A stretch of 8,237 nucleotides of DNA from UHGV virus genome UHGV-0217139; one strand, written 5' to 3'. The stretch is from a virus. Positions 1 through 8,237 of this stretch are shown here, one piece after another (the stretch's first letter is position 1; the number at the start of each line of letters is the position of its first letter). The notes beneath the pieces are model-generated. The model was not told where the DNA came from and did no database searches. It worked only from the letters and a program-made list of their open reading frames with translations. The position numbers and the translations under genes were made by a program.

Positions 1-126
1 GGCATAACCTGAATCTGAGGCAGCACCTGGCACGGCTGGGACGGAAGTCGCTGTCGTTTTCAAAATCGGTGGAGCTGCATGACAAAGTCATCGGGCATTA
101 TCTGAACATAAAACACTATCAATAAG

Positions 127-615
127 TTGGAGTCATTACCGGAAATCTCAACATTTTCAACTGTAAGAAACTTGTCCCATAGTCCACATAAGCATGTCCT
201 CCCTTTTGGTTTTGTTCAATCTCCAATACTTGCAACCCTCTGCTTAGATAAAAGTTATTTTGGTAGCTTACTACGCCGATTGAACAAACATCATGATCTC
301 AAGCTAAGTGTGTTTATGGATGATGTGATCATCTCGTCAAACGATTTGGCCCAATTACAAGCGGCTTACGACGAAGCACTAGTGGCAATGCGCAAATCTG
401 GTTATCAAGCCAACATGAGTAAAACTCAGGCACCATCGTCAAAGATTAGCGTGTTTAATTTAACTTTGAGTAAGGGAGTTATGAAAGTCACATCTCAGAA
501 AATGAGTGACTTCCTGATTGATTTCTATTCAAGCAATTATGAGCCGCACAGAATAGGGGTCAAAAACTACGTCGAAGCTGTTAATCCAGGGCAAGCGAAA
601 CTCTTTAAGTTGTAA
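127..615 (+). CDS. Reverse-transcriptase-like palm-domain fragment (motifs B to E only), N-terminally truncated; possibly a pseudogene
   Basis: Translation contains LPFGFVQSPILATL (RT motif B-like, LPQG...SP.L), then ~20 aa later SVFMDDVIIS (motif C, YxDD-like with FMDD), then KSGYQANMSKTQ and FNLTLSKG (motif D/E-like G..N..KT and FLG). No motif A is present; the frame is closed by stops at 103-105 and 109-111 and the first possible start is TTG at 127 with no convincing RBS. Composition is visibly AT-richer than the P4 core. Confidence 0.5.
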   Translation: MESLPEISTFSTVRNLSHSPHKHVLPFGFVQSPILATLCLDKSYFGSLLRRLNKHHDLKLSVFMDDVIISSNDLAQLQAAYDEALVAMRKSGYQANMSKTQAPSSKISVFNLTLSKGVMKVTSQKMSDFLIDFYSSNYEPHRIGVKNYVEAVNPGQAKLFKL

Positions 616-880
616 TTGCGATCGCATGTAGTAGCAACTGGGCTTGACTGAATGCCTGCCGCCATTTTGCCGCCACTACCAAAGAAAAAAGGGCTACGCT
701 TTCACGTAACCCCTTGATTTATTTGGGGGCTGGCGGAGTTTGAATAAATAATGTATTGCTTTGATTTTTAATGATTTTGTTTAATTCAGTTTTTGTGCGT
801 ATACCTAATCGTATACCAATGGCTGTAAGTTAATGTGAAATGAAAGCGCATTTTTACTTGGATTGATGCTATATCGTACA

Positions 881-1187
881 GGAAAAAAATTTTTTTTCGA
901 AAGAACTGTTCACACTGTTCACCTTTCTTTTTTCTCCTTTTATTTCAGAGTGATAGGTGGTGAATAATGGGTGAAGGGTGAACATTCGATTCTTCACCTC
1001 CGGCATTCTGCCGGTGTGACTCATACCGGTGATTAATCCCCCATACTGAAATCACACAGGGAGAAAAAAAAGTTTTTTTTGATTTGATTGTTCACACTGT
1101 TCACCTTTCGTTTTTCTCTTTTAATTTCAGTGTGATAACGGGTGAATATACGGTGAAGGGTGAACAGTGGATTGTTCACCTTCGGGG
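881..1187. repeat. crr: P4-type cis replication region (crr): two ~125-bp direct repeats (881-1003 and 1061-1187) with type I iteron octamers
   Basis: The two units are highly similar and start 180 bp apart. Each begins with an A/T tract (A7T8 / A8GT8) and carries TGTTCACAC-TGTTCACC (907-923; 1089-1105), inverted GGTGAA-type copies (956-983; 1140-1166) and a further TTCTTCACC/TGTTCACC (990-998; 1173-1180). As I recall, P4 crr is two 120-bp repeats separated by 60 bp that bind alpha protein via TGTTCACC iterons. Position just 3' of alpha fits. Confidence 0.75.
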
Positions 1188-1195
1188 GATGTCGG

Positions 1196-1223
1196 GATAA
1201 AAAAAGACCGGCAGATGCCGGTC
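1196..1223 (-). terminator. Rho-independent terminator of the alpha operon
   Basis: Inverted repeat GACCGGCA/TGCCGGTC at 1206-1223 (GC-rich stem, short loop) followed on the minus strand by a run of 7 U (plus-strand A run 1199-1205), 8 nt downstream of the alpha stop codon. Confidence 0.7.
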
Positions 1224-1230
1224 AGGTGGG

Positions 1231-3564
1231 TCAGGCTGTTGTAGGGTCGTCACATTTTGGCAGCCAGTCGCCGTAGCTTTCCTCTTTCAGCGTCAGGTTG
1301 GTCTGTATCCCCTGTTTGGTATGGCGCTTCTCGTAATTCAGCCCGTATTCCTTCAGCATCACCGGCAGCCCCAGCCCGAACATTTTCAGACTGAGTACAT
1401 TCCGGTAGCCGTTTGCCTCCATGTAGGCCAGATAGGCGTGATAGAGGTATTTACGGTAATTACGCGGGATGATACTGGCGTTCCCCATATACATGCCGCT
1501 GGTCTGCGGCAGGGTTTCCAGATAGCCGATAAAATCAAACGTCGGGTCGGCATCCCGTTTGATGTTCAGCGCCTCGTCTGAGTTCTGCTGGGACTGAAGC
1601 AGTGACCGGGCGAGCATCGGGTCGCTGAACTTCTGCATCAGGTGACGCACGATGACCGCCAGCTCGCGGGTGATTTTGTCCTTAAGCTGCGGGTCGCGCT
1701 CCTGCGGGGCTATCTGTTCCGGGAAGTGAATAATCACCCGCCGGCGTGACACGCCGCCGCTGCGGTCGGTGAAGCGCATCGGGTTATTGTTCACGGCCAG
1801 AATCACCGCCGGGATATGCGTGGAGTACGCATCCCGGTATTTCGGATCCACGGACACCGCATCGCCGCCGGTGATGGCCTTGAGTCCGGCACCGTCGCCG
1901 CTCCATTTTTCCTGGTCCGGCAGGCGTATCAGTGAGAAGCCAGTTAACGCGGCACGTTCACGCGGGGATTCCAGCGTCTCAATGGTGGCCGACGTGGCGT
2001 TATCCTCCCCGGCCAGCAGGGTGGCTATTTCGGCCATGATACTTTTGCCGCTGCCGCCGGGACCGGTCACCTCCAGAAAGAGCTGCCAGTCGTAGCGGTT
2101 TGCCAGCACCATAAACAGTGCGGCCAGAATCACGTCGCGTTTTTCCGCACGGCCACCGGCGGCACGGTCAAGCCAGCGCCAGAACGCGGGGGCGTGGGTT
2201 TCCAGCGTTTCCCCTTCCACCGGCGGGGTGAAATCCACATCGCACAGGGTACGCATCCAGTGTGACGGACTGTGCGGGTGGAACGTGCCGTTCTGCGTGT
2301 CGAGCACGCCGTTACGAAAGCCAATCAGGCAGCGGGAGGGGGCTTCCTGCTGCGGAATAATCAGCTTCAGGGTGTCCACCACGGAGGCCACCTTCCCGGA
2401 GGAGAACGGCGCGCGCAGCCGCTGAAACAGCCCGGCCACATCCCGGGCAAAGTCCTGTGGTGGCAGCACCTTCCAGACACCATTTTCATAACGGGACAGA
2501 AGCTGGCCGTTGGCATCGACCGCGAGCGCCTCGCCGTAATGCTCATAGATACGCATGGCCTTTTCGCTGGTACTCATGGCGGAAAACTCCGCTTCGCTCA
2601 TGGTGTCGAACGGGCTTTCAGCCGGTGGCCGGATGGCATCATAAATGGCCTTACGGGTGGCTTCCCCGCCGTACTGCGTGAAGGCATCATTCCAGTCACC
2701 GAAGACCGGCGGCAGGGCAACAACACCTTCACACGCATCTGCGGCTGCGGCGGCTTTTTTCTGGCCGTCACCGCTGAGGTCACGGTCAGCAGCAAGGACT
2801 ATCTGACAGGCCGGATGCTTCTGCCGGGCAAGGCTGGCCAGAGAAAGGAGGTTCACGGAAGAAAGCGCCACCATCACCGTTTCACCGGTCAGGTGATGTA
2901 CGGTAAGTGCGGTCGCGTATCCCTCCGCTATCCACAGACGTTTTCCGGCCTGATTCTGTCCTTCAAGGATGTGACAGGTGCCCCTGACCTGTCCGCCTTT
3001 CAGGGTGCGCTTACGGCCGTCAGCACTGATTAACTGAAGGTTAACCAGTGCGCCGCTGTCGTCATACAGTGGCACCACAAGGTCACCGGCGCGCCAGCTC
3101 ACGCCACCGGCTCTGTGTGTGCCGGTCAGCATCCGGCATTCCCGGCCGGGAAAGCCCTTGCGGGTCAGGTAGGCGTTACCGGTTCCGGGACGGGTTTTTG
3201 CCATCAGGGTTTGTGCCAGTGCGGCGGCGTTCTTCCGGGCAGCGTCTGTTTCAGCAACGGCGGCGGCCGTCACTGCCGGGTCAGCCGGGGGCAGACTGCC
3301 GGTCACGGCAGCCACCTTTGCGGCCGCGTCGGACGGGGAGACACCAAACACCTTTTCAACCAGTTTCAGGCCGTCACCGGCACCACACTGATTGCAGTAC
3401 CAGGTGCCGCGCCCCTCCCTGTCATCAAAACGGAAGCGGTCACTCCCGCCACAGACCGGACAGGGCTGATGACGGTTCTTCAGCACCTGAATCCCCAGCG
3501 CCGGGAGAATACGCGGCCAGTGGCCGAGCGCATGGCTGACGGTGGCGGTTACGTTCATTTTCAT
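1231..3564 (-). CDS. alpha: P4 alpha-type bifunctional DNA primase / helicase (replication initiator)
   Basis: 777-aa ORF. N-terminal zinc-binding primase motif CPVCGGSDRFRFDD...WYCNQCG and Walker A GPGGSGKS in the C-terminal half. RBS AAGGAGA 8 nt upstream of ATG. Length equals P4 alpha as I recall it (777 aa). Followed by crr iterons. Confidence 0.9.
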   Translation of the reverse strand: MKMNVTATVSHALGHWPRILPALGIQVLKNRHQPCPVCGGSDRFRFDDREGRGTWYCNQCGAGDGLKLVEKVFGVSPSDAAAKVAAVTGSLPPADPAVTAAAVAETDAARKNAAALAQTLMAKTRPGTGNAYLTRKGFPGRECRMLTGTHRAGGVSWRAGDLVVPLYDDSGALVNLQLISADGRKRTLKGGQVRGTCHILEGQNQAGKRLWIAEGYATALTVHHLTGETVMVALSSVNLLSLASLARQKHPACQIVLAADRDLSGDGQKKAAAAADACEGVVALPPVFGDWNDAFTQYGGEATRKAIYDAIRPPAESPFDTMSEAEFSAMSTSEKAMRIYEHYGEALAVDANGQLLSRYENGVWKVLPPQDFARDVAGLFQRLRAPFSSGKVASVVDTLKLIIPQQEAPSRCLIGFRNGVLDTQNGTFHPHSPSHWMRTLCDVDFTPPVEGETLETHAPAFWRWLDRAAGGRAEKRDVILAALFMVLANRYDWQLFLEVTGPGGSGKSIMAEIATLLAGEDNATSATIETLESPRERAALTGFSLIRLPDQEKWSGDGAGLKAITGGDAVSVDPKYRDAYSTHIPAVILAVNNNPMRFTDRSGGVSRRRVIIHFPEQIAPQERDPQLKDKITRELAVIVRHLMQKFSDPMLARSLLQSQQNSDEALNIKRDADPTFDFIGYLETLPQTSGMYMGNASIIPRNYRKYLYHAYLAYMEANGYRNVLSLKMFGLGLPVMLKEYGLNYEKRHTKQGIQTNLTLKEESYGDWLPKCDDPTTA

Positions 3565-3578
3565 GGTGTTGTTCTCCT

Positions 3579-3899
3579 TCAGTGCAGTACCGGCGCTTTT
3601 ATGTGACGGGCACAGAGTTCATCCATCACAACCAGCCCGAGAAAGGACAGCGACGGCGCGGCCTTCAGGGGGCCGGATTCCATTAAATCTTCCAGCAGGG
3701 CACAGGCTATCTGACGCCCTTTTTCCTCACCGTGCTGGCGCAGATAAAAGCCCTCCAGCTCAGCGGCGATGGCCGCCTCCAGTGATTCAAGGGTGAGATG
3801 CGGGTAGCGGTGCTGACGTTCGCACACGGTCAGCCAGGCACAGGCGACAGCACGACGGTAAAGGGCTGCGCGTAAGACGGGCGGTAAGGGTGTTTTCAT
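3579..3899 (-). CDS. P4 orf106-like small protein of the left operon (function unknown)
   Basis: 106-aa ORF directly upstream of alpha on the same strand; RBS GGGAGGA 6 nt before ATG; stop 15 nt before alpha start. Length and position match P4 orf106 as recalled. Confidence 0.6.
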
Positions 3900-4034
3900 T
3901 TGCTTTCCTCCCTGTGACAGATGACTGCATTCCGTGCCGGTTGCATTAACTGATAAGGCATATCTGCGTCTCCTGAAGACGTGCGTATCCCTGCGCGAAT
4001 ACGCACATTTAATTTTTCGGGTGTCGTTTTTTAA

Positions 4035-4490
4035 TTACAGATAATTGCGGTAACTGTTATCCGGGGTGATTTCCGGGTCAGGCTCCGTGCGGGGAATTTC
4101 CCGCCATTCCCGCGCCACCGGTGCCGCCCGGCTGACCGGAACAGGGTCCTGCGGGTAAATATCCAGATATTTCTCCCGCCATTTCTGTAATTCCGGGTCT
4201 CCGGCCATTTCTTTCAGTACCGCATGCCGGTTTACGGGGCTGCGTTTAAACAGGTCAGGACGGTCACAGGTAAATTCCCGCAGAAAACGCCCCAGCGGGA
4301 TGTCTGTGGTGCGCCCGTCGGCGAGGATACGCACAAGGATACTGAATTTACGGCGGTACGGGTTCCAGACAATGTCCGGGCAGCGGTACGGCATTTCCCA
4401 CGGAATACCGTCTTCCAGAATGCCGACCACGGCCACATCGGGAAAACCGGCAGAACGGTAAATCTCACCGGGCTGGGGAAAATCAAACAT
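4035..4490 (-). CDS. P4 orf151-like protein (function unknown)
   Basis: 151-aa ORF; its ATG overlaps the epsilon stop by 8 nt (operon coupling). Length and position match P4 orf151 as recalled. Confidence 0.6.
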   Translation of the reverse strand: MFDFPQPGEIYRSAGFPDVAVVGILEDGIPWEMPYRCPDIVWNPYRRKFSILVRILADGRTTDIPLGRFLREFTCDRPDLFKRSPVNRHAVLKEMAGDPELQKWREKYLDIYPQDPVPVSRAAPVAREWREIPRTEPDPEITPDNSYRNYL

Positions 4491-4770
4491 GCGTCCTGTC
4501 TCCCCGGTCTTTCTGCTGGGCGAGAAAATCGCGGCACAGGCCTTTGGCTTTCAGCTCATTCAGCACAAAATCAATATCTTCATTCAGGTAGCTGAAAATA
4601 TGCGGAATGTAGAGCTGATGCAGGCCGGAGAGTTCACGGTGAATCAAATCACCCCCAACAAACTGGGATACGGCGCTGGCGCGGTTGAGCTTATGGTAAG
4701 CCTCAATGCTGAGGTGTTCACAGGCGTCATGACGCGCTGAGACGGTCTGAGGGGCTTTTTTATTACGCAC
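4483..4770 (-). CDS. epsilon: P4 epsilon-like protein (helper-prophage derepression), GTG start
   Basis: The track gives a 175-aa ORF, but the in-frame GTG at 4770 has a GGAGG RBS 6 nt upstream and yields exactly 95 aa, the size I recall for P4 epsilon. The upstream in-frame part overlaps kil/eta in another frame. Confidence 0.55.
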
Positions 4771-4960
4771 GGGACACCTCCACCACCGGCAGACGGGCAG
4801 CAAGGGAGAGCACATAGTCACGGACAAAGGAACGGCGGGCACTGCGTTCATCACCGGCGACGGTGCGAAGCATACAGATACGGGGATGACGGTCTGCGCG
4901 ACGGACAGCCGCAAACACAAAGACAAATTCAGGGTGTGAGGGGGTAAGGGTTGTAGCCAT
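4763..4960 (-). CDS. kil: P4 kil-like 65-aa protein (C-terminal in-frame part of eta)
   Basis: ATG at 4960 preceded by a strong RBS AAGGAGG (7-nt spacer); 65 codons to stop at 4763-4765; overlaps the epsilon start by 8 nt. P4 kil is described as a 65-aa product forming the terminal part of the eta ORF. Confidence 0.6.
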
Positions 4961-5338
4961 AAGGCAGCCTCCTTCGAGTAGCAAATAACTGCTATCGCCG
5001 GAGTTCTCACGCTCGATGGCGATAGCCCAGACGGGGGTGAGAATACCGGCCTCGAAGAATACCGGCCAGCCCGGAGGCTGCCCCGCCTGAGCTACCATTG
5101 ACTCAGTGGCATAACATGCGATTGCGAACAGGATCATACCTGCACGGCAAACCACACGCCACACCATAATCTGGCGCTCTGTGGCGTTGATTGCGACACA
5201 AAAAAAGACGCATGGCGCGTCATATGTCGCCTTCGAGTTACACGGGTTCTCACGCCCGGCTGCCGATTTTGCGGCAACGGAAAGACTATATCCGCAAATG
5301 CCGGTCTGAGGATGAGTCTCCTGTGTCAGGGCTGGCAC
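4763..5338 (-). CDS. eta: P4 eta-like ORF (long form containing kil in frame)
   Basis: 191-aa ORF in the same frame as and ending at the same stop as kil; P4 eta is recalled as ~197-199 aa, starting upstream of the early promoter. The start codon is uncertain. Confidence 0.4.
4990..5300 (-). promoter_or_regulatory. P4-type immunity / early-left leader region (candidate P_LE, seqA/seqB/seqC-like motifs, CI RNA locus); boundaries unresolved
   Basis: Exact 10-mer GTTCTCACGC occurs twice (5003-5012 and 5246-5255), with a partly complementary GGGGGTGAGAATACCGG at 5033-5049. Hairpin GCTATCGCC(4991-4999)/GGCGATAGC(5018-5026) encloses the first copy in its loop. An 11-bp direct repeat GAATACCGGCC lies at 5041-5051 and 5057-5067. 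A -10-like TATAGT sits on the minus strand at 5285-5290. The pattern fits the P4 CI-RNA antisense immunity arrangement, but I cannot place the RNA ends. Confidence 0.35.
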
Positions 5339-5339
5339 A
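5322..5339 (+). promoter_or_regulatory. Delta/Ogr-type activator site (TGT-N12-ACA) at about -55 of the sid late promoter
   Basis: TGTgtcagggctggcACA; the dyad centre is ~82 bp upstream of the sid ATG, consistent with a transcription start near 5385 and a ~27-nt leader. P2/P4 late promoters carry TGT-N12-ACA centred near -55. Confidence 0.55.
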
Positions 5340-5359
5340 TCTGCAATGCGTCGTGTTGT

Positions 5360-5377
5360 TGTCCGGTGTACGTCACA
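5360..5377 (+). promoter_or_regulatory. Second TGT-N12-ACA dyad, ~38 bp downstream of the first (possible promoter-proximal Delta site)
   Basis: TGTccggtgtacgtcACA; centre ~17 bp upstream of the start predicted from the first dyad. I recall P4 Psid having a second Delta site near -18, but this is from memory. Confidence 0.4.
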
Positions 5378-5411
5378 ATTTTCTTAACCTGAAGTGACGA
5401 GGAGCCGGAAA

Positions 5412-6146
5412 ATGTCTGACAACACCATCCCTGAATATCTGCAACCCGCACTGGCACAACTGGAAAAGGCCAGAGCCGCCCACCTTGAGAACGCCCGACT
5501 GATGGATGAGACCGTCACGGCCATTGAACGGGCAGAGCAGGAAAAAAATGCGCTGGCGCAGGCCGACGGAAATGACGCTGATGACTGGCGCACAGCCTTT
5601 CGTGCAGCCGGTGGTGTCCTGAGCGACGAGCTGAAACAGCGCCACATTGAGCGCGTGGCACGCCGGGAGCTGGTACAGGAATATGACAATCTGGCCGTGG
5701 TGCTGAATTTTGAACGTGAACGCCTGAAAGGGGCGTGTGACAGCACGGCCACCGCCTACCGGAAGGCACATCATCACCTTCTGAGTCTGTATGCAGAGCA
5801 TGAGCTGGAACACGCCCTGAATGAAACCTGTGAGGCGCTTGTCCGGGCAATGCATCTGAGCATTCTGGTACAGGAAAATCCGCTCGCCAACACCACCGGC
5901 CATCAGGGCTACGTCGCACCCGATAAGGCTGTCATGCAGCAGGTGAAATCATCGCTGGAACAGAAAATTAAACAGATGCAAATCAGCCTCAGCGGCGAGC
6001 CGGTTCTCCGGCTGACCGGACTGTCAGCGGCAACACTTCCGCACATGGATTATGAGGTGGCAGGCACACCGGCACAGCGCAAGGTGTGGCAGGACAAAAT
6101 AGACCAGCAGGGAGCAGAGCTTAAGGCCAGAGGACTGCTGTCATGA
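5412..6146 (+). CDS. sid: P4 Sid external scaffold (capsid size determination) protein
   Basis: 244 aa from ATG 5412 with RBS GAGGAG upstream (the track ORF begins at an upstream GTG, giving 250 aa). N-terminus MSDNTIPEYLQPALAQLEKARAAHLENARLMDETV matches P4 Sid as recalled; coiled-coil-like composition; stop overlaps the delta start (ATGA). Confidence 0.85.
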   Translation: MSDNTIPEYLQPALAQLEKARAAHLENARLMDETVTAIERAEQEKNALAQADGNDADDWRTAFRAAGGVLSDELKQRHIERVARRELVQEYDNLAVVLNFERERLKGACDSTATAYRKAHHHLLSLYAEHELEHALNETCEALVRAMHLSILVQENPLANTTGHQGYVAPDKAVMQQVKSSLEQKIKQMQISLSGEPVLRLTGLSAATLPHMDYEVAGTPAQRKVWQDKIDQQGAELKARGLLS

Positions 6147-6643
6147 TTTACTGCCCGTCGTGTGGACATGTTGCTCACACCCGCCGCGCACATTTCATGG
6201 ACGATGGCACCAAGATAATGATTGCACAGTGCCGGAATATTTATTGCTCTGCGACATTTGAAGCGAGTGAAAGCTTTTTCTCTGACAGTAAAGATTCAGG
6301 AATGGAATACATTTCAGGCAAACAGAGATACCGCGATTCACTGACGTCAGCCTCCGGCAGTATGAAACGCCCGAAAAGAATGCTTGTTACCGGATATTGT
6401 TGTCGGAGATGTAAAGGCCTTGCACTGTCAAGAACATCGCGGCGTCTGTCTCAGGAAGTCACCGAGCGTTTTTATGTGTGCACGGATCCGGGCTGTGGTC
6501 TGGTGTTTAAAACGCTTCAGACCATCAACCGCTTCATTGTCCGCCCGGTCACACCGGACGAACTGGCAGAACGCCTGCATGAAAAACAGGAACTGCCGCC
6601 AGTACGGTTAAAAACACAATCATATTCGCTGCGTCTGGAATGA
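6143..6643 (+). CDS. delta: P4 Delta late-gene transcriptional activator (tandem Ogr-like zinc finger)
   Basis: 166 aa; two Cys4 zinc-finger modules (CPSCGH...CRNIYC and CRRCKG...CTDPGCG); translationally coupled to sid; same length as P4 delta as recalled. Confidence 0.85.
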   Translation: MIYCPSCGHVAHTRRAHFMDDGTKIMIAQCRNIYCSATFEASESFFSDSKDSGMEYISGKQRYRDSLTSASGSMKRPKRMLVTGYCCRRCKGLALSRTSRRLSQEVTERFYVCTDPGCGLVFKTLQTINRFIVRPVTPDELAERLHEKQELPPVRLKTQSYSLRLE

Positions 6644-6716
6644 GGGCTGCCGGTTAACACCGGCCGTCGCCGCACACCGTATTTTTATTCTTCAGCATGA
6701 TGAGAAAGAGATAACG

Positions 6717-7289
6717 ATGGAAAGCACAGCCTTACAGCAGGCCTTTGACACCTGTCAGAATAACAAAGCAGCATGGCTGCAACGCAAAAATGAGCTGGCA
6801 GCGGCCGAACAGGAATACCTGCGGCTTCTGTCAGGAGAAGGCAGAAACGTCAGTCGCCTGGACGAATTACGCAATATTATCGAAGTCAGAAAATGGCAGG
6901 TGAATCAGGCCGCCGGTCGTTATATTCGTTCGCATGAAGCCGTTCAGCACATCAGCATCCGCGACCGGCTGAATGATTTTATGCAGCAGCACGGCACAGT
7001 ACTGGCGGCCGCACTGGCACCGGAGCTGATGGGCTACAGTGAACTGACGGCCATTGCCCGAAACTGTGCCATACAGCGTGCCACAGATGCCCTGCGTGAA
7101 GCCCTTCTGTCCTGGCTTGCGAAGGGGGAAAAAATTAATTATTCCGCACAGGATAGCGACATTTTAACGACCATCGGATTCAGGCCTGACGCGGCTTCGG
7201 TGGATGACTGCCGTGAAAAATTCACCCCTGCGCAGAACATGATTTTTTCGCGTAAAAGTGCGCAACTGGCATCACGTCAGTCTGTGTAA
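6717..7289 (+). CDS. psu: P4 Psu polarity-suppression (Rho antagonist) / capsid decoration protein
   Basis: 190 aa; RBS AAGAG 6 nt upstream; last gene of the sid-delta-psu operon and directly followed by cos, as in P4; length matches P4 Psu as recalled. Confidence 0.85.
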   Translation: MESTALQQAFDTCQNNKAAWLQRKNELAAAEQEYLRLLSGEGRNVSRLDELRNIIEVRKWQVNQAAGRYIRSHEAVQHISIRDRLNDFMQQHGTVLAAALAPELMGYSELTAIARNCAIQRATDALREALLSWLAKGEKINYSAQDSDILTTIGFRPDAASVDDCREKFTPAQNMIFSRKSAQLASRQSV

Positions 7290-7453
7290 AATTCCCCGAA
7301 AACCCGCTTGTTTTTACTGAAAAAAGCCATGCATCGATAAGGTGCATGACTTTGCATGCGTTTTCCCGCCCCATTATCAACAAAACACGCCATTCCCGGC
7401 GCGGCCTGAGCGTGTCAGTGCAACTGCATTAAAACCGCCCTGCAAAGCGGGCG

Positions 7454-7472
7454 GGCGAGGCGGGGAAAGCAC
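7454..7472. other. cos: cos site: 19-nt P2/P4-type cohesive-end sequence
   Basis: Exact GGCGAGGCGGGGAAAGCAC, the 19-nt 5' cohesive end sequence of P2 and P4 as I recall it, located ~165 bp downstream of psu where P4 cos lies. Confidence 0.75.
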
Positions 7473-7780
7473 TGCGCGCAAATGTTGATGTGTTCAATTT
7501 TTTCAAAGTCTGAGAGCGCAATTGAGTTTGCTCGCTTCATCTACGACAATAAGTTAGAGTAGTGATTAGAAAGGGGAATGTTTAATATTATTGAGTTAAA
7601 GTTATTTTTGTGTTTTTGGATGACTCTATTGATGTGTTTATGATAGTGTTATTTTTACGGAGTGGATGGAGGATTAATTTCATTTAATGCATTAACATAA
7701 TGCATGTGTTTTAATGTGGCTGTTAAATATTGTGGCGGTTTTTTAGGCTATAAAAACATTTGTGTGCTTCTTATTTTTTT

Positions 7781-8237
7781 TTATTTATATTTTTGTGGGG
7801 TAATTTCAACATATGAAGAAGCGAACCATTCTACAGGTTTTTTGTTTTTCAATTCTTCTGTGTCAAAATTATCATCTGGTGTTGACCTAAATGTAATATA
7901 ATAAACGCCTGGCTTATTTAATCCAACAATATAGCTAAGGGTTTTTTCTGCTCCTATTAAAACATGTGTCTTTGATAATGATTTACTTTTTGATTCTGGA
8001 TAGTGTTTTTTATCTCTCAAAGATGTATAGAGATTTGGTGTAAAAGATTGAGATTGTTCAACTTTATCGCCATTTGCGCTTACTTTGTACACAGTTAAAG
8101 CTCCTTTGGATGTGTCAAAGGATAATGGTCGTTTGCCGTTATTTTTTATGGTTACATTAATAATCATTCCTAGCTGTGTTTTTAACGGGATAACATTAAT
8201 AGCAATACTGCTAGAGTCAGTGCCCTTAATTTGCTCT
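7781..8237 (-). CDS. 3' part of a cargo gene of unknown function in the post-cos variable region; 5' end lies beyond the window
   Basis: The minus-strand frame stays open from the window edge (8236) to the TAA at 7781-7783, giving 152 codons; the M at 8167 in the ORF track is internal. Very AT-rich codon usage unlike the P4 core. Sequence (…VYYITFRSTPDDNFDTEELKNKKPVEWFASSYVEITPQKYK) matches no family I recognise. Confidence 0.55.
   Translation of the reverse strand, partial: EQIKGTDSSSIAINVIPLKTQLGMIINVTIKNNGKRPLSFDTSKGALTVYKVSANGDKVEQSQSFTPNLYTSLRDKKHYPESKSKSLSKTHVLIGAEKTLSYIVGLNKPGVYYITFRSTPDDNFDTEELKNKKPVEWFASSYVEITPQKYK

What the first reader, a model, noticed from the sequence alone, without database searches (positions are those of the whole stretch)
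1..880. Reverse-transcriptase-like remnant in the low-GC left flank next to crr
ORF 127-615 carries recognisable RT palm motifs B, C (FMDD instead of YADD) and D/E but lacks motif A and any N-terminal region. It sits in AT-richer DNA that ends where the crr repeats begin (~880). An RT directly next to a satellite's replication module is not part of canonical P4. It could be a decayed retron, Abi-type or defense-associated RT, or a group II intron fragment, or flanking host-island DNA beyond the element's end.
Basis: partly seen in the sequence, partly recalled or inferred. Interest (0 to 1): 0.6.

Follow-up and report, generated by a model that had tools for sequence, protein, structure and literature searches.

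The report
Broken reverse transcriptase from neighbouring prophage
The reverse-transcriptase-like ORF is real, but it is the dead 3' two-thirds of a gene from a P2-like helper prophage next to the P4-like satellite, cut off by an IS1 insertion; intact copies elsewhere form a compact, uncatalogued retron-like module (structured leader RNA, small protein, 257-aa RT).

Summary
Window 141-615 encodes RT motifs B-E (Pfam RVT_1, 60 bits against a cutoff of 29.6) and lacks motif A. The cause of the truncation was missed: window 1-140 is the end of IS1, and the ORF's first five codons are IS1 sequence. The RT is not satellite cargo. Window 141-~726 is ~99% identical to the right end of P2-like prophages integrated at ssrA, where an intact 257-aa RT follows gpD and ogr. 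The satellite starts at ~727 with its own degenerate ssrA-like att arm. The remnant has lost 100 codons (including the motif A aspartate), its promoter, its leader and a partner gene, so it is non-functional. Across 34 distinct relatives the intact module is always a structured leader, a 51-64 aa small protein, then an overlapping RT. Covariation supports the leader hairpins and a helix that hides the small protein's ribosome-binding site. Retron RTs are the closest solved relatives. Even so, the family scores far below genuine members of every catalogued retron type, has no HTH gene, and has FN in place of VTG. It works like a type VI retron but is not a member. The window feature itself is an ordinary IS-disrupted pseudogene.

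The parts
1..140 (+). Right end of IS1: C-terminal 40 codons of the transposase (3-125) and the terminal inverted repeat ending ...GGAGTCATTACC at 140
   Evidence: Pfam DDE_Tnp_IS1 7.1e-19, 68.9 bits, profile 92-131/131. This stretch is multicopy in 4966 of 5426 complete E. coli genomes, median 10 places per genome. Similarity to the intact RT gene stops exactly at 141.
141..615 (+). 3' two-thirds of a 257-aa retron-like RT gene (codons 101-257 plus stop at 613-615): motif B 199-246, motif C FMDD 313-324, motifs D/E and thumb region following. It is a pseudogene; the annotated ORF start (TTG at 127) is IS1 sequence.
   Evidence: RVT_1 60.2 bits. The coding part is identical to L001 9001-9475, the intact gene WP_000151541.1. 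The missing part holds motif A with invariant D73.
616..726 (.). Non-coding right arm of the P2-like prophage (its attP arm). It includes at 691-712 (minus strand) the hairpin plus T-run that serves as the ssrA terminator when the prophage abuts ssrA.
   Evidence: Colinear with L001 9476-9586. The same arm follows ogr directly in L003, which lacks the RT. Terminator-like site at L001 9572-9551, minus strand.
722..744 (-). att junction: a degenerate copy of the ssrA 3' end (GGGCTGGCGGAGTTTGAA at 727-744, against ssrA GGAGCTGGCGGGAGTTGAA). It belongs to the satellite's crr-side end; the crossover lies within ~722-730.
   Evidence: The identical sequence ends the satellite in L002 (host DNA beyond it) and L003 (P2-like DNA beyond it), while L001 has the true ssrA 3' end there. 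No tRNA or tmRNA gene is called in the window.
745..880 (.). Satellite DNA between its att arm and the crr repeats; not part of the RT-bearing element
   Evidence: Shared with L002 and L003. Window 719-880 matches ~1200 E. coli genomes that lack the RT.

Best explanation
Shown: the window's left end is a three-part junction. An IS1 element (1-140) has inserted into codon ~100 of an RT gene. The surviving RT piece (141-615) and the 110 bp after it are the right end of a P2-like prophage integrated at the tmRNA gene ssrA. At ~727 the P4-like satellite begins with its own imperfect ssrA-like att arm, so helper prophage and satellite sit in tandem at one att site. The remnant lacks the catalytic motif A aspartate, the promoter, the leader RNA and the upstream small-protein gene, so it is an inactive pseudogene. 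Its sequence is still identical to intact copies, so the disruption is recent. Also shown, in intact relatives: the gene belongs to a compact 250-260 aa RT family. It is always preceded by a ~185-nt structured leader and a 51-64 aa small protein (SP) whose stop overlaps the RT start. In E. coli, Klebsiella and relatives the module is an optional ~1.2 kb cargo between ogr and attP of P2-like phages. Inferred: the intact module is a retron-like anti-phage abortive-infection system that works like a type VI retron. The leader carries the RT template between invariant inverted repeats (CCUGACG...CGUCAGG), followed by UUAG, a candidate branching G. A second, covarying helix pairs an upstream leader segment with the SP Shine-Dalgarno sequence and keeps a toxic SP untranslated until infection changes RT or cDNA activity and frees the ribosome-binding site. 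The two long-range helices cannot both be fully formed, which suggests a switch.
For: IS1; multicopy. RT domain.

Origin of the DNA: 29 complete E. coli genomes match window 141-744 at 98.7-99.3%, annotated 'reverse transcriptase domain-containing protein | ssrA'. In L001 the order is tail genes, gpD, ogr, 57-aa ORF, 257-aa RT, ssrA. Base-level colinearity starts at window 141.

Satellite boundary and optional nature of the RT: the same satellite is found with no P2 neighbour (L002) and with a P2-like neighbour lacking the RT (L003). L004/L007 (Escherichia sp. MR) has the window's arrangement. Thirteen Klebsiella phage records carry the RT at their extreme end.

Family: 72 protein clusters; conserved motifs.

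Retron affinity: the top 13 PDB profile hits are all retron RTs, with Ec86 at 5e-13 over nearly full length, and group II RTs at about 1e-4. The best PADLOC hits are retron RT models.

Architecture: leader, SP, overlapping RT, and no HTH gene, in 34 of 34 distinct leaders. ogr lies 67-109 nt upstream in 24 of 47 contexts.

RNA: MFE -68.8 kcal/mol, z = -2.86. The inverted repeat is invariant in 34 of 34. The helix over the SD forms 9-11 bp in all 17 distinct combinations, with compensatory changes at six positions; 0 of 2000 partner shuffles reach the observed pairing, and slid registers give 0.30-0.65 against 0.83. HP1 and HP2 covary.

Type VI precedent for a translationally repressed SP inside the retron transcript: 10.1101/2025.10.22.683967 and 10.64898/2026.04.27.721009.
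Against: Nothing contradicts the structural account, but the other side of the IS1 is outside the window. It is therefore unknown whether this is a simple insertion or an IS1-mediated deletion of the helper prophage. For the functional inference:
- No experiment exists for this family.
- The RT scores only 63 bits on the best retron model, where a genuine type VI RT scores 259.
- The retron VTG motif is replaced by (V/A)FN and NAxxH is only partly kept.
- The inverted repeat is invariant, so it has no covariation support and could instead be a protein-binding palindrome.
- The SP has no similarity to type VI SPs or to any Pfam family.
- No leader boxes are shared with a reference type VI retron.
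- msDNA production and SP toxicity are untested.
Confidence: 0.85

Rival explanations
1. The intact family is not retron-like in mechanism. It would be a DRT/UG-type system whose RT copies a short repeat template in the leader (protein-primed or repeat-addition cDNA, as in DRT9/DRT10) and signals to the small hydrophobic protein.
For: The centre of the leader carries lineage-specific short direct repeats (8-13 nt at 9-18 nt spacing) in about 8 of 18 lineages, above shuffles (sum 140 against mean 108, maximum 125), and copy number varies between close relatives. VTG is absent and scores on retron models are weak. The ncRNA, membrane-type protein, RT layout parallels DRT10 (PMC12632851).
Against: UG/DRT models score lower than retron models: UG33 33 bits, Drt3a 17.6 against cutoff 200, Drt5 13 against 550. 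All top solved-structure hits are retron RTs. The inverted repeats followed by UUAG and a hairpin match retron msr layout (layout recalled from knowledge of Ec86). DRT10 RTs are ~456 aa with SLATT partners.
Confidence: 0.12
2. The RT module serves the P2-like phage's own life cycle (for example control of lysogeny or lysis, or exclusion of its satellite) and is not general anti-phage defence.
For: It sits directly after the late activator gene ogr at the prophage end. In this window the RT-bearing helper lies against a P4-like satellite.
Against: It is optional among otherwise similar P2-like prophages (L003 lacks it). It also occurs next to unrelated phage tail genes, integrases and plasmid/ICE-type genes, which is the behaviour of a mobile accessory cargo. 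Its architecture parallels toxin-bearing type VI retrons.
Confidence: 0.08
3. The RT is cargo of the P4-like satellite itself, like retron Ec73 in the P4-like retronphage phiR73.
For: It lies ~260 bp from crr. P4-like elements are known to carry retrons (Rousset et al., 10.1101/2021.01.21.427644; phiR73 from general knowledge).
Against: The satellite ends at ~727 with the same att arm in copies that have host DNA or RT-less P2 DNA beyond it. Window 141-726 is colinear with the P2-like prophage end including its ssrA-proximal arm. The satellite's own cargo hotspot lies at the other end, between psu and int.
Confidence: 0.02
4. The fragment is a piece of a group II intron or an Abi-type RT.
For: Generic RT motifs are present, with weak hits to group II RT models (TIGR04416 at 18-23 bits).
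Against: TIGR04416's cutoff is 300 bits. Rfam finds no intron RNA domains in the window or in the intact locus. No Abi model appears among the PADLOC hits. Group II RTs rank far below retron RTs against solved structures.
Confidence: 0.02

Closest known systems
Type VI retrons (Retron-Vpa2, Retron-Sen3, Retron-Eco12)
   Same: Same order of parts and same logic: a structured leader flanked by inverted repeats, then a small helical, hydrophobic protein of 50-80 aa, then the RT. The SP ribosome-binding site is buried in a conserved RNA helix (for type VI; here). RT_VI is the best-scoring PADLOC model. Direct repeats in the RNA are also noted for the Vpa2 hyRNA.
   Different: There is no Cro/C1 HTH gene in any of 34 loci. 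The RT is 257 aa against ~320, and scores 63 bits where a genuine type VI RT scores 259; it is 25% identical to a Sen3-like RT. The SP is unrelated in sequence. No leader boxes are shared.
Canonical retrons, e.g. Retron-Eco1 (Ec86)
   Same: Ec86 RT is the best solved-structure match, aligned over nearly the whole protein (E=5e-13). Inverted repeats bracket a structured RNA directly upstream. The 5' repeat is followed by UUAG and a hairpin, as at the Ec86 branching G (the Ec86 detail is from my own knowledge).
   Different: About 50 N-terminal residues are missing relative to Ec86. VTG is replaced by (V/A)FN and NAxxH by (V)AAxxxH. The effector is a small protein upstream of the RT, not an enzyme downstream. 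msDNA is untested.
Defence cargo hotspots of P2-like phages and P4-like satellites (Rousset et al. 2022)
   Same: It is an optional, swappable accessory module in a P2-like prophage, of a kind (an RT system) found in those hotspots.
   Different: The described P2 hotspots lie next to cos (tin/old region) and at Z/fun. This module sits at a third position, between ogr and attP.
DRT10 (UG17) and DRT9
   Same: Tripartite layout of ncRNA, membrane-associated protein and RT; short repeat patterns in the ncRNA.
   Different: DRT10 RTs are ~456 aa with SLATT partners and belong to the UG/Abi branch. UG/DRT models score weakly here.
STY2879 of Salmonella Typhi CT18
   Same: Essentially the same gene: a 257-aa protein reported as 99% similar to WP_000151541, function stated as unknown (PMC4409374). 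It falls in the same >90% identity cluster.
   Different: STY2879 is intact and is used as a serovar-specific diagnostic target. Here the gene is truncated and sits in an Escherichia strain.

Membership tests
Reverse transcriptase domain (Pfam RVT_1) | Score above Pfam's gathering threshold | tested here: met
   60.2 bits against 29.6 for the 162-aa remnant, covering the C-terminal half of the profile only.
IS1 | IS1 transposase C-terminus followed by the terminal inverted repeat; multicopy in enterobacterial genomes | tested here: met
   DDE_Tnp_IS1 68.9 bits against 24.1, ending at profile position 131/131. Matches in 4966 of 5426 E. coli genomes, median 10 places per genome.
Cargo of a P2-like prophage | Synteny: tail genes, gpD, ogr, module, att site | tested here: met
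   L001 annotation; L008; 24 of 47 distinct contexts with ogr 67-109 nt upstream and gpD before it. The window's 141-726 is colinear with that end.
Part of the P4-like satellite | Located between the satellite's two att arms | tested here: not met
   The satellite's crr-side att arm is at 727-744, and the RT lies outside it. The same satellite occurs without the RT.
Retron (general) | RT most similar to retron RTs | tested here: met
   The top 13 PDB profile hits are all retron RTs and the top PADLOC hits are retron RT models. Similarity is weak, however: 63 bits at best, and NCBIfam retron_St85 49.5 against cutoff 235.
Retron (general) | Retron-specific motifs NAxxH and VTG | tested here: not met
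   In the Ec86 alignment VTG corresponds to the family-invariant (V/A)FN. Of NAxxH only the His, and usually the Ala, is kept.
Retron (general) | Adjacent structured ncRNA bracketed by inverted repeats (a1/a2) with a branching G after the 5' repeat | tested here: inconclusive
   Intact relatives have CCUGACG...CGUCAGG ~165-180 nt apart, invariant in 34 of 34, followed by UUAG and a covarying hairpin. Because the repeat is invariant there is no covariation, and branching cannot be tested. None of this is present in the window.
Retron (general) | Production of msDNA | not testable with these tools
   Needs expression of an intact copy and nucleic-acid analysis.
Type VI retron | RT belongs to the type VI clade | tested here: not met
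   RT_VI: 63 bits for this family against 258.9 bits for a Sen3-like reference RT. The reference also scores above 90 bits on most other retron types. BLASTP gives 25% identity, E=5e-4.
Type VI retron | Cro/C1-type HTH gene next to the RT (present in ~78% of type VI) | tested here: not met
   The SP stop overlaps the RT start in all 34 distinct loci, leaving no room for an HTH gene. The reference locus has HTH_VI at 95.5 bits.
Type VI retron | Small accessory protein of the SP_VI clusters | tested here: not met
   No PADLOC hit for the SP, whereas the reference SP scores 128 bits on SP_VI. hhalign probability is below 1% against Sen3-like and Vpa2 SPs. A protein of analogous size and position is present.
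Type VI retron | SP ribosome-binding site sequestered in the ncRNA structure | tested here: met
   A helix of 9-11 bp between a leader segment and the SD in 17 of 17 distinct combinations, with compensatory changes and clean controls.
Group II intron RT/maturase | Family-level RT score and intron RNA domains | tested here: not met
   TIGR04416 at 18-23 bits against cutoff 300. No intron RNA family in the window or in the intact locus.
Abi / DRT (UG) reverse transcriptases | Family-level match to an Abi, DRT or UG model | tested here: not met
   Best are UG33 at 33 bits, Drt3a 17.6 against 200 and Drt5 13 against 550. No Abi model is listed.

The most novel reading that the evidence does not exclude
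Intact relatives of this remnant define an uncatalogued, minimal retron type: leader RNA, small protein and a 257-aa RT, with no HTH. The leader would switch between the a1/a2 priming helix and a mutually exclusive helix that hides the toxin's ribosome-binding site, so reverse transcription would be coupled directly to toxin translation. The module would occupy a third, undescribed cargo slot (ogr-attP) of P2-like phages.
Probability: 0.35. Interest if true: 0.6.

Novelty: new variant of a known kind. Interest (0 to 1): 0.35.

Why it matters
For this window, the result removes a false lead. The RT is not a new satellite-borne function. It is a pseudogene left by IS1 at the edge of the neighbouring helper prophage, and the satellite boundary moves from ~880 to ~727.

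More widely, the intact gene is common: E. coli, hundreds of K. pneumoniae contigs, and S. Typhi STY2879. It is annotated only as an 'RT domain protein' and is missed by current defence-system models. The covariation-supported leader, the conserved overlapping small ORF and the fixed ogr-att position make it a well-defined candidate for a minimal retron-like defence system, one that could be tested with a 1.2 kb construct.

It also shows a helper prophage and its satellite stacked at one ssrA att site. Finally, it raises a practical warning: all six primer sites of the 'Typhi-specific' STY2879 LAMP assay are present in this Escherichia sequence.

Tried and rejected
- **Blocked look-ups.** A tblastn with a frame error failed.
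- RNAalifold on the raw MAFFT leader alignment recovered only the invariant helices, because the centre is length-variable and a 2-nt gap was misplaced. I replaced it with rule-based extraction of the paired segments plus shuffle and slide controls. Rfam finds no family for the leader or for the window's left end.
- **Literature.** The type VI preprints' supplements hold no RT sequences and no mention of this accession, and Mestre 2020 has no supplement held. I therefore could not check whether this family is in their retron dataset. I obtained a reference type VI locus through the published Sen3 SP sequence instead.
- **Ideas considered and rejected.** Satellite cargo, group II intron, Abi/DRT and DRT10/UG17.
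- **Not resolved.** The order in which the helper and the satellite integrated, and what lies left of the IS1.

Full report
**1. The observation**

ORF 127-615 is present. Its 162-aa product matches Pfam RVT_1 at E=3.1e-16 (60.2 bits, cutoff 29.6), but only over profile positions 110-197 of 205. Motifs B (window 199-246), C (FMDD, 313-324) and D/E are there; motif A and the N-terminal region are not. The RT call is therefore real and not a chance motif match. That stretch is multicopy in 4966 of 5426 complete E. coli genomes. The ORF's TTG start and first five codons are IS1 sequence. Low GC (0.36-0.43) extends through crr to ~1200 and does not stop at 880.

**2. Which element the DNA belongs to**

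Window 141-744 matches 29 complete E. coli genomes at 98.7-99.3%, always under the features 'reverse transcriptase domain-containing protein | ssrA'. The remaining ~1200 matching genomes hit only window 719-880. In strain CV839-06 (L001) the order is P2-type tail genes, gpD, ogr, a 57-aa ORF, an intact 257-aa RT (WP_000151541.1), then the 3' end of the tmRNA gene ssrA. Base-by-base alignment shows identity starting exactly at window 141, which corresponds to RT codon 101, and running through the stop codon and a further ~110 bp.

Three copies of the same satellite were recovered through its alpha protein:
- L002 has host genes (csiD and so on) beyond crr.
- L003 has a P2-like prophage beyond crr but no RT; ogr is followed directly by the same ~75-bp arm.
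- L004/L007 (Escherichia sp. MR) has the window's arrangement, with the contig ending inside the IS1.

In the junction alignment all satellites end with GGGCTGGCGGAGTTTGAATAAATA..., an imperfect copy of the ssrA 3' end (true sequence GGAGCTGGCGGGAGTTGAA), and differ to the left of it. So the satellite begins at ~727. Window 141-726 is the right end of a P2-like helper prophage, and the RT module (~1.2 kb, L001 ~8299-9515) is an optional cargo between ogr and attP. The arm also carries, at window 691-712 on the minus strand, the hairpin plus T-run that terminates ssrA when the prophage abuts it. Neither the IS1|RT junction nor the RT|satellite junction occurs in any of the 5426 complete E. coli genomes.

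**3. State of the remnant**

IS1 removed codons 1-100, which include the invariant motif A aspartate (D73 in alignment A3). It also removed everything upstream: promoter, leader and small ORF. The remnant cannot be a working polymerase. Its coding part shows no differences from intact copies, so the disruption is recent and not long decay. What lies left of the IS1 is outside the window and outside the only matching public contig.

**4. What kind of RT it was**

The full-length protein retrieves 72 clusters of 245-275 aa proteins from Enterobacterales and from Endozoicomonas, Herbaspirillum and metagenomes, all named only 'reverse transcriptase domain-containing protein'. The consensus at motif C is Y(M/V)DD; FMDD is a branch peculiarity. 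A profile of the family against all PDB chains gives retron RTs as the top 13 hits (Ec86 5e-13, Eco8, Kva2, Ec78, Ec67, Ec83). Group II intron RTs appear only at ~1e-4. The Ec86 alignment spans query 11-249 against Ec86 59-296. Ec86's VTG aligns with the family-invariant (V/A)FN, and NAxxH with (V)AAxxxH.

In PADLOC the best models are retron RTs (RT_VI 63 bits, I-B 54, IX 52), while UG/DRT models are weaker (UG33 33 bits) and no Abi model is listed. NCBIfam gives retron_St85 49.5 against cutoff 235, group II 23 against 300, and Drt3a 17.6 against 200.

To calibrate these scores I located a genuine type VI retron through the published Sen3 SP sequence. Its RT scores 258.9 bits on RT_VI and above 90 bits on most other retron models. 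Its HTH scores 95.5 on HTH_VI and its SP 128 on SP_VI. The P2-borne RT is 25% identical to it (E=5e-4). The family is therefore retron-related, but it is more distant from every catalogued type than those types are from one another.

**5. The module around intact copies**

Upstream of the RT in L001 lies a 57-aa ORF overlapping the RT start. Before that is a ~185-nt non-coding stretch bracketed by CCTGACGT...ACGTCAGG. Scans with the window's own RT fragment and motif, and with leader boxes taken from the loci recovered that way, gave 80 loci and 34 distinct leaders.

Every one has the same order. The leader comes first, then a 51-64 aa SP (pattern M..GLV...NE...NY), then an RT whose start overlaps the SP stop by 8-38 nt. 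None has an HTH gene. The distance from the 3' repeat to the SP ATG is fixed at 20-21 nt.

The E. coli leader folds at -68.8 kcal/mol (z = -2.86). The inverted repeat (7 bp core) and a GCGCUUGCGC hairpin are invariant in 34 of 34. The 5' repeat is always followed by UUAG and a hairpin that takes at least six different stem sequences across 20 distinct variants. A second hairpin also covaries.

A further long-range helix pairs the segment after the first hairpin (E. coli CUCCGUAGA) with the sequence 1-3 nt after the 3' repeat (UCUAUGGAG), which contains the SP Shine-Dalgarno. It forms 9-11 bp in all 17 distinct combinations and shows compensatory changes at six positions, for example G-C/C-G/A-U at position 10. 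None of 2000 partner shuffles reaches the observed pairing, and slid registers fall to 0.30-0.65 against 0.83. X lies inside the loop closed by the inverted repeat, and X' follows the 3' repeat almost immediately. The two helices therefore cannot both be fully formed; this is an inference.

The SP has no similarity to type VI SPs or to any Pfam family, and the leader shares no boxes with the reference type VI locus.

**6. Context of the module**

In 24 of 47 distinct contexts ogr lies 67-109 nt upstream on the same strand, with gpD before it, across diverged P2-like phages (ogr 54-100% identical). K. michiganensis has the module after ogr at a non-ssrA site, and thirteen Klebsiella phage records carry it at the very end of the record. 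Other lineages place it beside different tail or baseplate genes, integrases, tRNA-Met or tmRNA, or plasmid/ICE-type genes. The P2 hotspots described so far are next to cos and at Z/fun, so ogr-attP is an additional cargo position.

**7. Mechanism**

Shown: the anatomy of the junction, the loss of essential parts, the family's retron affinity, and the conserved leader-SP-RT layout with a covarying helix over the SP ribosome-binding site.

Inferred: intact modules act as retron-like abortive-infection systems in the manner of type VI retrons. In those, a toxic SP is encoded within the retron transcript and its RBS is sequestered; either infection-induced msDNA derepresses its translation (Vpa2) or an HTH antitoxin holds it in check (Sen3). 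Because this family has no HTH, RNA-level control is the more likely regime. I put ~0.85 on the structural account and ~0.5-0.6 on the functional one.

The main rival for the intact family (~0.12) is a DRT-like repeat-copying mechanism. It is suggested by lineage-specific short direct repeats in the leader centre and by the missing VTG motif.

**8. Comparison and novelty**

The window feature itself is an ordinary IS-disrupted pseudogene. The family it came from works like a type VI retron but fails three of four type VI membership tests and one general retron motif test. I file it as a new variant of a known kind, not as a member. I could not check whether it appears in the Mestre retron dataset. 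The only literature on the gene treats it as STY2879, a diagnostic marker of unknown function.

Noticed in passing
window 161-351 and 595-615: All six primer sites of the published 'S. Typhi-specific' STY2879 LAMP assay (PMC4409374) are present in this Escherichia sequence: five exact and F3 with one mismatch. The >90% identity protein cluster also includes many K. pneumoniae and E. coli entries. The assay may cross-react with strains carrying this prophage gene, even the truncated copy.
   Followed up: partly
L001 8400-8520 and the equivalent centre of the leaders in L008, L017, L029, L042, L049, L058, L061, L067: The centre of the leader RNA carries lineage-specific short direct repeats (8-13 nt exact, spaced 9-18 nt; e.g. 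CTGGGCTTA x2-4, GATTAACGGTTA x2, ACGTTGCTTAACG x2). Copy number differs between close relatives. They exceed shuffles overall (140 against mean 108, maximum 125) but are clear in only ~8 of 18 lineages. Their purpose is unexplained; they may be a repeat template.
   Followed up: partly
window 727-8237, with L002, L003, L004: The rest of the window is a P4-like satellite integrated at ssrA: crr, alpha primase 1231-3564 (-), sid/delta/psu 5394-7289 (+). In the window and in L003 it sits in tandem with a P2-like helper prophage at the same att site. The order of integration could not be determined.
   Followed up: partly
window 5015-5102, 5201-5278, 5239-5291 (minus strand): Rfam finds C4 antisense RNA (74 bits), isrK (67 bits) and the c4 a1b1 target (50 bits). 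This is the P4-type CI RNA immunity region of the satellite.
   Followed up: no
window 7500-8237 (continues beyond the window; L004 4024-5785): A 30% GC stretch after psu is the satellite's cargo hotspot. It holds a 217-aa ORF with no family (window 7781 onward, minus strand, cut by the window end) and, just outside the window, a 367-aa DUF8426 protein that hits the PADLOC candidate defence family PDC-S02 (64 bits).
   Followed up: partly
protein cluster P0036 (K. pneumoniae, 302 aa): In one abundant Klebsiella cluster the small protein and the RT are annotated as a single in-frame 302-aa product (SP sequence MTKQHKIGLVKVLETT... joined to the RT). This is either a natural fusion or a start-site call that reads through the overlap.
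   Followed up: no
window 691-712 (minus strand): The ssrA terminator hairpin supplied by the P2-like prophage arm is stranded here, separated from ssrA by the whole satellite. The satellite must provide its own sequence downstream of ssrA at the other junction (L004 2574 onward).
   Followed up: no
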